Of a stretch of DNA of 60,523 bases, positions 15,001-18,000 are shown one piece after another; the first letter of the stretch is position 1; each line of letters begins with the position of its first letter. The stretch lies in the sequence record JQ011318; one strand, given 5' to 3'. The position numbers were made by a program. Source of the stretch: Escherichia phage TL-2011c.

Positions 15001-18000
15001 ACTGATTTTTAAAGTGATTTATTTTTTAAGGGGGCAGATAACAGGAGGGGATATGCAAAGAAAAACCCGGCGCATGGGCCGGGCTATTTATCTGGTCCTG
15101 TTCTCATTCAGTAGAGTAGGGGCCAAGAAATCGCACTCCGTTGAAGTGAATAAGATGAGAAGGTGCATCAGCCACCCATACCTCTGTTTCCCATGCGATT
15201 TCACCAAGATATCGCCCCATGATGGAGCGATTTGGAAAAGCGGTCACATAGACAAGTCCGGCTGTTGATCCGGCAAACAGCCTGGCAAGCTCAGCATGCC
15301 GCTTCCCATCAACCGGTCCATGACTGGTGACAGACTCAACCAGTAGCAGCCAGTTTTTCGCAGTAAAATGTAGCACCACATCTGGCATTTTACCGTGTGA
15401 ATCCACATCAACACCTAGCCCGGCCAGCAGTGGAGCGTCGAAGTAGCCCCACTTTTCGCCAGTGTCGCCAGCATAGACCAGCACGCTACCCGGAGCAAAA
15501 CGTGGGGCGAAGTCCTCTATTATGGCACGGATAAGTTCGCTGTGCTCGCCGGGACTGAGGGTTATTTGCTGGCCCGCAGCAATTTCAACAGGGATACGAT
15601 TCTGTTCGCGCTCCTTAGCATAGCGGGTAACCAGCGTTTCACGCTCGGCTAAATAGGTTGCAAGGCTATCGTGCCATGCCGGGCTGCCGAAAGTGCGTAG
15701 CATGGACAGAGCAGCAGGTTCGATCTGATAAACAGCCTTCGGGCTGTTCACTGGGCGATCGGGCTTGTCCGGATTGTAGAGGGCTACTCCAGCAGCGCAG
15801 AACTGATGCATAGACTGGCGGCGGAATGTCTCACGAGTATTGGGTGCGTAGACCTTGCCGTAGTGCTCCCGAACCCAATTCATGATTGGTGTAATGCCCA
15901 CAAGCGGATTTTCCGCGTCGGCCCATGCTTTTCCCGGTGTGAGGTTCAGGAGTGCCAGCAAACACAAAGCAGAACGCTCATTCTGCTGCGCTCTGGGCAG
16001 GCCTAAGGATGCTATAATTTGCTGAGCGGCCTCAATATAATCATTTTGGTTGTTCATGCAGTCAGAGCTCCTAGCTTAGCGTCAATATGTTCTTGCGTGA
16101 GAGTTTCTTGTTGCATAGCCCACTTGCCAAGCTCTATCAGAGTGTCACGGCTTGGGTACTTAATCATCTTGAGGTCGGTTGCATTGACCTGTGTATGCCC
16201 GTTGAAGCGACGGAAATACTTATCCACTGCGGTAGTGTTCAGGAACACGGCCAAGCCACGGGCCAGCGCCTCGGGTAACCCATGTTTGTTCTCATGAAAC
16301 ACGTTCATGTGATTTTCAAATCCCAACACTGAATACTCACTGAAGGTAGCAGGATCAACGACGCTTGCTACCACTCGGCGCTTTTCCTCCTTCGACGAGA
16401 AACGACGCACCACACAATAAAAACCGTTCGGGTAAAGCCACTTTTCTGTCTCGTCGTTGCGCATGATTGCGTTGGGTTTCTTCAAACCTTCCACAGGCCA
16501 GACAGTGCTACTCATACTCAAATGGCTCGGGTAGATCAGGGGAACAGTTCCTTCTTCTGGCATGCTGCGCAAATGAGCTTTCAGTCGGAAATCAACTATC
16601 GGTCCGGTCGATACCTTCACGCCAATATCAGCCAGCGAACATTGTACGGCAGATGATAACTCAATGGTGCTTTTCTCGAGCGTGGTCGGCACATGAATAA
16701 ACCGCTCCGAATCGTCCGGGTACACAATCTGGTCAAATGGGTGTTCGTAGGTGACTAGGTCAAAAAAGCTATCATCGGTCGAAGTTGTGACTGTAACAGC
16801 CTCCTGACGGCCTCCACGCTCCAGGCGGATGATAATATTTTCCTGCAACACATCGTCATCCCTGAAAGCTTTGCTACGTGATTCGAACAAATGAATATGG
16901 CGGATTGCTGCCCGCTCAAGTATGAAATTACGGAACGGACGGTAATACGGTCCGTTGCAGAAACTACGTGGGATTATGGCCACTATCTGCCCGCCAGGTG
17001 CAACCTCACCTACAGCCAGTGCAACAAAGGCGGAATACAGATTTACCGTCTCGATACCGACAGTGCGAAGAGCCTGCCGGTGGGCTGACTGGCTATTGAT
17101 CTTCTTGTAAGGCGGATTAAGTATTGCATGGGTATAACCTCGATCCTGTAGACCTTCGGCGGTTGCCAGCTCAATATAATCCCCTTCGATGATGCGGGGC
17201 GTCACTCTCCTGTACCCGGTTAAGTGCTTCGCAAGGTGACCACACAGCTTTTTGTCGATTTCGTAGGCTGTTGCCTCGACAGACTCAAAGCCAAACTCGC
17301 CAACCAGCCAACGGTCGAGGAAGGCGCAAGACAGTGCGCCTAAACCAGCGCCTGCGTCCAGTAGACGGCAAGTTTTCATTGTGCTCGGTGGAAACAAGGA
17401 GGCCATAAAACGGGCCACGCCAGAAGGCGTCATTGAACTGGCCGAACTCTGCTTTGTGTTTACGCGCGGTACGGGGAGACAGCTCGCGACGCACGCTGTC
17501 TGCGACGTCTAGCTTTTGAAGCATAACTAATCCTCTTTACGTGGCATGATGATGCCAACGTGCTTTTGACATCCTCCACATTCTTCAGGCGTGAAGGATG
17601 TCAAATCACTCTGTGAGCTCAATCAAAAGTCTCATCATTCCACTGCGATTTGATGACCTTTCCGACAAACTGGCAGTTTTCGTTACACTCAATCATGTCG
17701 AATCGTGGGTTGAGCGGCTCCAGGTACGCTTTACCGCTCTCACGAATGAATCGTTTGAAGGTAAATTCATCGCCGTTCATTCGGGCCACGCAAAAATCGC
17801 CATCCTCGATTTCCCGTTCAGGGTCAACGAGTATCAGCATACCTTCAGGGAAGCTGGGTTTACCACCCTGCGGTGCGGTCATTGAATGCCCCTTGACCTC
17901 CAGCCAGAACGACCTGTCACTGGCTTTTGTGGTGGTGGAGATCCATTTAATCGCATCTTTTGCGGTGTACGAAATATCATCCATTGAGAATGCGCCAGCT

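What the first reader, a model, noticed from the sequence alone, without database searches (positions are those of the whole stretch)
15056..17608. Type II restriction-modification cassette in the rexAB position of the immunity operon
Directly downstream of the lambda-like cI, on the same strand, lie a gamma-class N6-adenine methyltransferase (motif I LLDAGAGLGAL, motif IV NPPY) and a 317-aa ORF overlapping it by 4 bp whose size and context fit a PstI/BsuBI-type endonuclease, closed by a strong terminator. This is where lambda carries rexAB, so the cassette would be expressed with cI in the lysogen, giving restriction-based defence and possibly addiction. A PstI-isoschizomer R-M in an O104:H4 Stx2 prophage has been reported (recalled, not verified as the same element).
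Basis: partly seen in the sequence, partly recalled or inferred. Interest (0 to 1): 0.7.

Follow-up and report, generated by a model that had tools for sequence, protein, structure and literature searches.

The report
Known EcoGIII restriction-modification cassette in Stx2 phage
This is the already characterised EcoGIII (PstI-like, CTGCAG) restriction-modification gene pair that sits just after the repressor gene of O104:H4-type Shiga-toxin phages; the only oddity here is a single extra base that breaks the methylase gene and is most likely a sequencing error.

Summary
On the minus strand, a lambda-cI homologue (17619-18332) is followed by an N6-adenine methyltransferase gene (16054-17524), a 317-aa BsuBI/PstI-family endonuclease gene (15104-16057, overlapping by ATGA) and an intrinsic terminator (15064-15085).

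Window 14393-20473 is identical to the E. coli O104:H4 C227-11 chromosome except for one base. C227-11 is the strain in which the EcoGIII system was characterised: it methylates and cleaves CTGCAG and restricts lambda-like phages and plasmids. The cassette is present in 96 phage records and 122 complete E. coli genomes.

The window has an extra T at 17433 that frameshifts the methylase after codon 30, leaving a 459-aa ORF instead of the 489-aa protein. None of 72 phage records or 122 genomes has this base. The window is phage TL-2011c, which was sequenced with 454 technology. It carries a second private one-base insertion (36646) that breaks a structural gene. A broken M next to an intact R should be lethal, so a sequencing artefact is the best reading.

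Co-transcription with cI from PRM is plausible but not shown. Novelty: already known. Interest is low.

The parts
17619..18332 (-). cI repressor gene (237 aa), a lambda cI homologue and the first gene of the leftward immunity transcription unit
   Evidence: ORF. Pfam HTH_3 plus Peptidase_S24. Lambda repressor 3bdn at E 4.8e-92 over residues 3-236.
17565..17605 (-). Strong hairpin in the cI-M spacer: 15-16 bp stem, 9-11 nt loop, no U tract after it. Possibly an attenuator, processing site or stabiliser. Its function is not known.
   Evidence: Inverted repeat I6. RNA fold of the spacer gives -38.8 kcal/mol, z -3.45, with 0 of 200 shuffles folding as well. The stem is invariant and the loop variable in 4 phages. 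It is retained next to cI in PhiR12_3, which has lost the cassette.
17531..17536 (-). Shine-Dalgarno sequence AGAGGA, 6 nt upstream of the methylase start codon ATG at 17522-17524
   Evidence: Read directly from the sequence.
16054..17524 (-). ecoGIIIM, a gamma-class N6-adenine DNA methyltransferase gene (489 aa in all other copies). Here it is interrupted by one extra base.
   Evidence: Annotated as a 1470-nt CDS in P13374, PA2, F039 and C227-11. Deleting base 17433 restores a 489-aa protein identical to that of P13374 and C227-11. The rare-codon positions listed for M.EcoGIII (CUA 5, CCC 17; PMC6456624) match this start codon.
17433..17433 (.). Private single-base insertion (TT instead of T on the + strand) that frameshifts M after codon 30. 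Probably a 454 sequencing error.
   Evidence: It is the only difference from P13374 in 14950-18450 and from C227-11 in 14393-20473. It is absent from 72 of 72 phage records and 122 of 122 E. coli genomes, and from the 95%-identical O145-type allele.
16054..17433 (-). 459-aa ORF as it reads in this window (M lacking residues 1-30). It carries motif I LLDAGAGLGAL (17332-17364) and motif IV NPPY (17107-17118).
   Evidence: It aligns to positions 31-489 of the 494-position PADLOC MTase_II profile. The exact sequence is AEW24616.1 / YP_007001446.1, 'DNA methyltransferase [Escherichia phage TL-2011c]', on a 60523-base contig.
17285..17524 (-). 79-aa ORF created by the frameshift. Its first 30 codons are the true N-terminus of M (ending ...KAEFGQF); the rest is out of frame.
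   Evidence: No Pfam hit. The exact sequence is not in the 15-billion-protein collection.
15104..16057 (-). ecoGIIIR, a BsuBI/PstI-family type II restriction endonuclease gene (317 aa). Its start overlaps the M stop (ATGA, 16054-16057).
   Evidence: Pfam PF17728 (residues 7-143) and PF06616 (residues 155-307), E 1e-54 and 5e-61. SdaI 2ixs at E 1.2e-77. PADLOC REase_II at 557.7 bits. 100% identical to R of P13374 and C227-11.
15055..15085 (-). Intrinsic terminator that closes the cI-M-R unit
   Evidence: Stem AGCCCGGC...GCCGGGTT, 8 pairs with 6 G-C, loop of 6, followed by TTTTTCTTTG.
14933..14961 (-). Sigma-70 promoter-like site (TTTACA, 17 nt, TATATT) in the A+T-rich stretch just beyond the terminator. 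It is a candidate PL and marks the end of the immunity unit.
   Evidence: 10 of 12 consensus match. This is a consensus match only. The positional inference comes from the lambda map.

Best explanation
The region is the EcoGIII type IIP restriction-modification system, a PstI isoschizomer, as carried by the Stx2a phage TL-2011c, which belongs to the same phage family as the O104:H4 outbreak phage.

How it works:
- M.EcoGIII is a gamma-class N6-adenine methyltransferase. It methylates the adenine of CTGCAG on both strands of the host and prophage DNA.
- R.EcoGIII has an N-terminal winged-helix recognition domain and a C-terminal PD-(D/E)XK-type nuclease domain, as in SdaI. It cuts unmethylated CTGCAG in incoming phage or plasmid DNA.
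- The two genes lie immediately downstream of cI on the same strand. M comes first and R is translationally coupled to it through an ATGA overlap. A terminator follows.
- The pair sits where lambda has rexAB and is expressed in the lysogen.

The most likely transcription route is read-through from the cI promoters across a terminator-less hairpin; this step is inferred.

The extra base at 17433 that frameshifts M in this window is most likely a 454 sequencing or assembly error in the TL-2011c record. On that reading the real phage encodes the intact 489-aa enzyme.
For: Identity of the cassette:
- Window 14393-20473 equals the C227-11 chromosome except for T17433.
- R is identical, and the repaired M is identical, to the P13374 and C227-11 proteins.
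- Rare-codon positions published for EcoGIII R (AUA15, CCC21, AGA22) and M (CUA5, CCC17) match (PMC6456624).

Family:
- Pfam BsuBI_PstI_RE and BsuBI_PstI_RE_N.
- SdaI structure at E 1.2e-77.
- PADLOC REase_II and MTase_II.

Function, from the literature:
- EcoGIII methylates and cleaves CTGCAG and protects against lambda-like phage (PMC6602927; PMC3893438).
- It restricts pESBL transfer by about 10^4 and does not cut m6A-modified sites (PMC7736820; PMC4288162).
- Lysogens have 98.8-100% of CTGCAG sites methylated.

Anatomy:
- SD sequence, ATGA overlap and terminator.
- No sigma-70-like site in the 94-nt cI-M spacer.
- The spacer hairpin has no U tract.

Sequencing artefact:
- The insertion is absent from all 194 other copies.
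- The exact 459-aa ORF occurs only in TL-2011c, on a 60523-base contig, against more than 1200 contigs with 489-aa forms.
- TL-2011c was sequenced with 454 technology (PMC3293862).
- A second private insertion (GGG instead of GG, at 36646) breaks a conserved structural gene and is absent from 182 of 182 records.
- The natural decay variants found lose R (ArgO145 frameshift) or both genes (PhiR12_3 deletion), never M alone.
Against: - The promoter that drives M and R has not been mapped here or in any paper I could read. The strong hairpin between cI and M could reduce read-through, and a weak cassette-internal promoter cannot be excluded.
- I could not read the primary paper (Fang et al. 2012). 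Its results are cited through later papers.
- The artefact reading is circumstantial. There is no independent resequencing of TL-2011c in the collections searched.
- The insertion turns a single T into TT. That is a less typical 454 error than one in a long homopolymer run.
Confidence: 0.85

Rival explanations
1. The one-base insertion is genuine. On this reading TL-2011c carries a frameshifted methylase gene beside an intact endonuclease gene. The lysogen would survive because a 459-aa enzyme is made from the ATG directly after the insertion (Met31 of the normal protein), or through ribosomal frameshifting, or because R is poorly expressed.
For: - The window sequence reads this way, and the record annotates the 459-aa protein.
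- The insertion lies immediately before an in-frame ATG.
- The 459-aa ORF keeps motifs I and IV and the whole C-terminal region.
- Another 459-aa member exists in the same 90% cluster, on short contigs.
- Cooper et al. describe an active 'foreshortened' M in RM13514 (PMC3893438).
Against: - The base is absent from 194 of 194 other copies, including the divergent O145-type allele.
- There is no Shine-Dalgarno sequence in front of the internal ATG, and ribosomes coming from the upstream start pass it in another frame.
- The lost segment contains the conserved FGQF of the N-terminal F-G-Q-F-x-T-P stretch, and the family profile includes those 30 positions.
- The same record has another private frameshift in a structural gene of a phage that forms plaques (PMC8044961).
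- The record comes from 454 data.
- The O145-type allele, to which the RM13514 gene probably belongs (97% aa identity; RM13514 itself was not fetched), has a full-length 1470-nt M gene in phage F039. The 'foreshortening' is therefore probably an annotation matter.
Confidence: 0.1
2. The cassette is an autonomous moron with its own promoter. It would be expressed independently of the cI promoters, and the hairpin after cI would act as the end of the cI transcript.
For: - A very stable, conserved hairpin lies directly after cI.
- In PhiR12_3 the hairpin stays with cI while the cassette is gone, which suggests the hairpin belongs to the cI module and the cassette begins after it.
- The cloned EcoGIII system works from a plasmid (PMC4288162), although there it is in an expression vector.
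Against: - Only 41 nt separate the hairpin from the M start codon, and no sigma-70-like site was found there.
- The hairpin has no U tract, so it is not a canonical intrinsic terminator.
- The single good terminator lies after R.
- Full methylation in lysogens fits either model.
Confidence: 0.2
3. The enzyme pair recognises a longer or different site than CTGCAG, for example CCTGCAGG as in SdaI, the closest solved relative.
For: - The only solved homologue is SdaI, an 8-bp cutter.
- Six of the ten CTGCAG sites in the window are CCTGCAGG.
Against: - SMRT methylomes of strains with 97-99.7% identical M genes show 98.8-100% of all CTGCAG sites methylated (PMC6602927; PMC3893438).
- The cloned C227-11 enzymes, which are identical to those here, were reported to methylate and cleave CTGCAG.
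Confidence: 0.01

Closest known systems
EcoGIII R-M system (M.EcoGIII / R.EcoGIII) of the Stx2a prophage of E. coli O104:H4 C227-11 (Fang et al. 2012, cited through PMC6602927, PMC3893438, PMC4288162 and PMC7736820)
   Same: It is the same element. The DNA is identical over 6081 bases around the cassette apart from one base. The R protein is identical, and the M protein is identical after the extra base is removed. Position next to cI, gene order, ATGA overlap and terminator are the same.
   Different: Only the extra T at 17433, which frameshifts M in this record and is probably an artefact.
PstI and BsuBI R-M systems (CTGCAG; the founding members of Pfam PF06616/PF17728)
   Same: Same endonuclease family (both Pfam domains), same recognition sequence according to the methylome papers, and an N6-adenine gamma-class methylase partner.
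   Different: EcoGIII is phage-borne and sits inside a prophage immunity region. I did not measure sequence identity to PstI or BsuBI themselves. From memory only, the PstI genes are divergently transcribed, whereas here M and R are co-oriented and overlap.
SdaI restriction endonuclease (PDB 2ixs)
   Same: Full-length homologue (E 1.2e-77, residues 8-315 against 14-322). It therefore has the same two-domain architecture, a winged-helix recognition domain followed by a nuclease domain.
   Different: SdaI recognises the 8-bp site CCTGCAGG, whereas EcoGIII recognises the 6-bp core. At the position aligned with the lysine of the SdaI E-A-V-K stretch, the protein here has threonine (E-S-V-T). The significance of this was not assessed.
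Lambda rexA-rexB (lysogen-expressed exclusion genes downstream of cI)
   Same: Same position and orientation relative to a lambda-type cI, followed by a terminator and then the leftward early promoter region. Both protect the lysogen from other phages.
   Different: There is no sequence or mechanistic relationship. Rex is an abortive-infection system, whereas this is classical restriction-modification. Transcription from PRM is established for rex and only inferred here.

Membership tests
BsuBI/PstI family type II restriction endonucleases | C-terminal BsuBI/PstI nuclease domain (Pfam PF06616) above the gathering score | tested here: met
   205.2 bits against a cut-off of 27; residues 155-307 cover profile positions 1-153 of 154.
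BsuBI/PstI family type II restriction endonucleases | N-terminal HTH / winged-helix recognition domain (Pfam PF17728) | tested here: met
   184.4 bits against a cut-off of 27; residues 7-143 cover profile positions 3-139 of 140. Full-length match to SdaI 2ixs.
BsuBI/PstI family type II restriction endonucleases | Catalytic PD-(D/E)XK residues conserved | tested here: inconclusive
   The P-D of 'KMPDVV' and the E of 'VESVT' align with SdaI 'RMPDLV' and 'MEAVK'. The aligned lysine is threonine here. I could not verify which SdaI residues are catalytic. Activity is supported instead by 100% identity to the R of C227-11, which is reported to be biochemically active (PMC3893438).
BsuBI/PstI family type II restriction endonucleases | Cleavage at CTGCAG that is blocked by m6A | not testable with these tools
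   Literature only: PMC6602927, PMC3893438 and PMC7736820.
Gamma-class N6-adenine DNA methyltransferases (Eco57I / N6_Mtase type) | Motif order: N-terminal F-G-Q-F-x-T-P stretch, then motif I (FxGxG-like), then motif IV NPPY, then a C-terminal target-recognition region | tested here: met
   In the repaired 489-aa protein, GQF is at residue 28, LLDAGAGLGAL at 54-64 and NPPY at 136-139, followed by about 350 further residues. In the window as it reads, the first stretch is split off by the frameshift.
Gamma-class N6-adenine DNA methyltransferases (Eco57I / N6_Mtase type) | Profile match above a curated threshold | tested here: met
   Pfam PF07669 Eco57I at 37.5-37.6 bits against a cut-off of 25.3. 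PADLOC MTase_II PDLC03227 at 780.5 bits. NCBIfam gave only a weak, sub-threshold hit.
Gamma-class N6-adenine DNA methyltransferases (Eco57I / N6_Mtase type) | Intact reading frame | tested here: not met
   In this window the gene is frameshifted at 17433. It is intact in 194 other copies. The break is judged to be a record artefact.
Type II R-M system (separate R and M of one specificity, adjacent genes) | Adjacent, separate R and M genes forming one unit | tested here: met
   M then R on the same strand, with an ATGA overlap, one SD sequence each and one terminator after R.
Lysogen-expressed immunity-operon cargo (the lambda rexAB position) | Immediately downstream of cI on the same strand, with no terminator in between and a terminator after it, before PL | tested here: met
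   94-nt spacer with a hairpin but no U tract. Terminator at 15064-15085 and a PL-like site at 14933-14961.
Lysogen-expressed immunity-operon cargo (the lambda rexAB position) | Transcribed from the cI maintenance promoter in the lysogen | not testable with these tools
   Expression in lysogens is implied by full CTGCAG methylation and by phage restriction. The promoter is not mapped.

The most novel reading that the evidence does not exclude
The extra base at 17433 is real. TL-2011c, the phage of the unusually virulent O103:H25 outbreak strain, would then carry a methylase that lacks its first 30 residues or depends on recoding, next to a fully intact endonuclease. That would be a natural R+ / M-compromised state, and it might contribute to the reported lysogen instability and high spontaneous phage production. 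Separately, the conserved hairpin between cI and M could be a dedicated attenuator that sets the ratio of R-M to cI expression.
Probability: 0.07. Interest if true: 0.4.

Novelty: already known. Interest (0 to 1): 0.1.

Why it matters
As a discovery it does not matter, because the system has a REBASE name, a published methylome, deletion mutants and a cloned expression plasmid.

It has some practical relevance:
- The TL-2011c reference record (NC_019442 / JQ011318) very probably contains single-base errors. These truncate the annotated methylase and break a structural gene, so anyone using that record for annotation transfer or for R-M surveys should be aware of them.
- The transcriptional wiring of the cassette to the cI operon, including the conserved hairpin, appears never to have been mapped. 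It is a small, tractable question about how a prophage safely expresses a nuclease.

Tried and rejected
- I tried to read Fang et al. 2012 by DOI and by PMC3879109. Neither is held, so its findings are cited through later papers.
- I tried to fetch TL-2011c by accession from the phage collection (NC_019442, JQ011318). Neither is present. The identity of the window was established by an exact-protein look-up instead.
- I looked for the 'foreshortened' RM13514 methylase alignment in the supplement of PMC3893438. Only the figure legend is held.
- I looked for an independent promoter in the cI-M spacer. The consensus scan found none, and my own reading of the 41 nt after the hairpin found only poor -10 candidates.
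- Rfam scan of 14400-18700 at E<=1: nothing credible within the cassette or on the hairpin, only a chance MIR394 hit at E 0.22.
- NCBIfam has no specific model for either protein.
- I considered depletion of CTGCAG in the phage as a sign of self-avoidance. There are 10 sites against about 14.7 expected, which is not a meaningful depletion.
- I did not use the large homology-search, structure-prediction or fold-search tools, because the identity of the element was already settled.
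Full report
**What is in the sequence**

On the minus strand the ORF list and the raw sequence show the following:
- A 237-aa ORF at 17619-18332.
- A 94-nt spacer.
- An ATG at 17524 preceded by AGAGGA.
- A long methyltransferase-like reading frame that ends at 16054.
- A 317-aa ORF at 15104-16057 whose ATG overlaps the preceding TGA (ATGA).
- 19 nt further on, a G+C-rich hairpin followed by a T run at 15085-15055.

The 237-aa protein has HTH_3 and Peptidase_S24 domains. 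It matches the lambda repressor structure 3bdn over its full length at E 4.8e-92. A lambda-type Cro gene lies divergently at 18392-18631.

**What the two proteins are**

- Endonuclease: the 317-aa protein matches both Pfam domains that define the BsuBI/PstI endonuclease family. PF17728 covers residues 7-143 (E 1.2e-54) and PF06616 covers residues 155-307 (E 4.6e-61), each across the whole model. It matches the SdaI crystal structure 2ixs at E 1.2e-77 and a PADLOC type II endonuclease model at 557.7 bits.
- Methyltransferase: this protein passes the Pfam Eco57I methylase threshold and matches a PADLOC type II methyltransferase model at 780 bits. Motif I (LLDAGAGLGAL) precedes NPPY, and a long C-terminal region follows, which is the gamma-class order.

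That criterion is clearly not met.

**It is the known EcoGIII system**

- The 3.5-kb stretch is at least 99% identical to 72 phage records and 95-99% identical to 24 more. Almost all are Stx-converting phages, and they include the O104:H4 outbreak phage P13374.
- The cassette is present in 122 of 5426 complete E. coli genomes.
- Over window 14393-20473 the sequence is identical to the chromosome of O104:H4 strain C227-11 except for one base.
- C227-11 is the strain in which M.EcoGIII and R.EcoGIII were characterised.

Later papers summarise that work (Fang et al. 2012, which I could not open):
- It is a PstI-like type II system that methylates and cleaves CTGCAG. It protects against lambda-like phages, and its removal changes the expression of about 1900 genes (PMC6602927; PMC3893438).
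- The cloned system restricts conjugal entry of pESBL about 10^4-fold and does not cut m6A-modified sites (PMC4288162; PMC7736820).
- Lysogens with 97-99.7% identical M genes have 98.8-100% of CTGCAG sites methylated.
- The rare-codon positions tabulated for the EcoGIII genes from REBASE are R: AUA15, CCC21, AGA22 and M: CUA5, CCC17 (PMC6456624). They match the codons read here when M starts at 17524.

- In P13374, PA2, F039 and C227-11 the methylase CDS is 1470 nt, encoding 489 aa. In the window the same interval is 1471 nt.
- Alignment shows a single extra T at 17433 (+ strand: CATTGAA instead of CATGAA). It is the only difference from P13374 across 14950-18450.
- It shifts the frame after codon 30 (...KAEFGQF). 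This produces a 79-aa ORF (17285-17524), and a 459-aa ORF that begins at the very next ATG (Met31).
- Removing the base restores a protein identical to that of P13374 and C227-11.
- An 81-base probe centred on the site matched 72 phage records and 122 genomes. Every one of them had the one-base gap. The 95%-identical O145-type allele also lacks the base.
- The PADLOC family profile aligns the 459-aa ORF to its positions 31-489, so the missing 30 residues are part of the family.

**Why I read the frameshift as an artefact**

- The exact 459-aa sequence exists in the 15-billion-protein collection only as 'DNA methyltransferase [Escherichia phage TL-2011c]' (AEW24616.1 / YP_007001446.1). Its longest contig is 60523 bases, which is the length of this window. 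By contrast, 489-aa forms occur on well over a thousand contigs.
- TL-2011c came from a 454 assembly completed by PCR (PMC3293862).
- Compared with P13374, the window has several isolated one-base insertions in short homopolymers within otherwise identical sequence: 9457, 23717, 29556, 36646 and 44630.
- The insertion at 36646 (GGG instead of GG) breaks the homologue of a 336-aa structural-region protein. It is absent from all 182 phage records that carry the region.
- The phage forms plaques and lysogens (PMC8044961).
- An intact endonuclease with an inactivated cognate methylase is expected to be lethal. The decay variants I found conform to this expectation. ArgO145 has a frameshifted R with an intact M. 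PhiR12_3 has lost M and two thirds of R together.

None of this is proof, and only resequencing would be. I put the artefact reading at about 0.85-0.9.

**How it most likely works**

Shown by identity plus published experiments:
- M methylates CTGCAG.
- R cuts unmodified CTGCAG.
- Both enzymes are active in lysogens.

Shown by the sequence:
- M comes before R.
- The two genes are translationally coupled through the ATGA overlap.
- A single good terminator follows R.
- Beyond the terminator lies an A+T-rich stretch with a promoter-like site (14933-14961).
- That stretch is followed by isrK-like and C4-like RNA genes and then a Rha/Ash antirepressor gene. This fits the start of the leftward early operon.

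Inferred:
- Transcription enters the cassette from the cI promoters. The 94-nt spacer contains no sigma-70-like site.
- The spacer does contain a very stable hairpin at 17565-17605. The spacer folds at -38.8 kcal/mol with z -3.45, and the hairpin has no U tract.
- The hairpin stem is invariant in four phages while its loop varies. It stays attached to cI in PhiR12_3, where the cassette is deleted.
- It could attenuate, process or stabilise the transcript. I cannot tell which.

Post-segregational killing ('addiction') is a general property of many type II systems. It is untested for this one in anything I could read.

**Comparison with known systems**

- It works like PstI/BsuBI and is a member of that family on both domain criteria.
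- It occupies the place of lambda rexAB without any relationship to Rex.
- Its nearest solved relative is SdaI, which recognises CCTGCAGG. The published methylomes rule out an 8-bp specificity for EcoGIII.

**Verdict**

However, the system is already known, named and experimentally characterised, so novelty and interest are low. The only additional results are two: the probable sequencing errors in the TL-2011c record, and the uncharacterised hairpin between cI and M.

Noticed in passing
window 14404-14591 (-): Rfam hits above gathering score to isrK (14516-14591, 61.8 bits) and C4 antisense RNA (14404-14491, 77.4 bits). They lie directly between the PL-like promoter and a Rha/Ash-domain antirepressor gene (13702-14487). 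This resembles a P1 immI-like or Gifsy isrK-type antirepressor control module at the head of the leftward operon.
   Followed up: no
window 36646 (also 9457, 23717, 29556, 44630, 49918): Isolated one-base insertions in short homopolymers relative to P13374. The one at 36646 (GGG instead of GG) frameshifts the homologue of P13374 ORF59 (336 aa) and is absent from 182 of 182 phage records. This points to sequencing errors in this record.
   Followed up: partly
window 17565-17605: A 15-16 bp hairpin directly after cI. The stem is invariant and the loop variable across phages. It is retained in PhiR12_3, which lacks the R-M cassette. It has no U tract and its function is unknown.
   Followed up: partly
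window 21422, 27921, 37307, 39670, 41433, 41541: Six of the ten CTGCAG sites in the window are the 8-mer CCTGCAGG, where about 0.6 would be expected from base composition. Overall, 14 of 20 flanks are C. Two of the sites lie in collagen-like Gly-Pro-Ala-Gly repeats of a tail-fibre gene. Codon context may explain the rest.
   Followed up: no
window 3977-4264, 12821-13054, 13702-13989; sRNA-Xcc1 hits at 4647-4732, 5182-5271, 13485-13568: Three antirepressor-like genes share an 88-94% identical C-terminal segment. Three copies of an sRNA-Xcc1-family element lie next to them.
   Followed up: no
L006 (ArgO145) about locus 1050; L007 (PhiR12_3) locus 2921-3082: Natural decay forms of the cassette. 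ArgO145 has a one-base insertion in a C run of the R gene (equivalent to window ~15446) with M intact. PhiR12_3 has lost window 15421-17564, keeping only the last ~100 codons of R.
   Followed up: partly
window 25752-26011 and 24095-24343: STnc100 and AsxR sRNA genes next to the stx2 region, and three tRNA genes upstream of it. These are as expected for an Stx2a phage.
   Followed up: no
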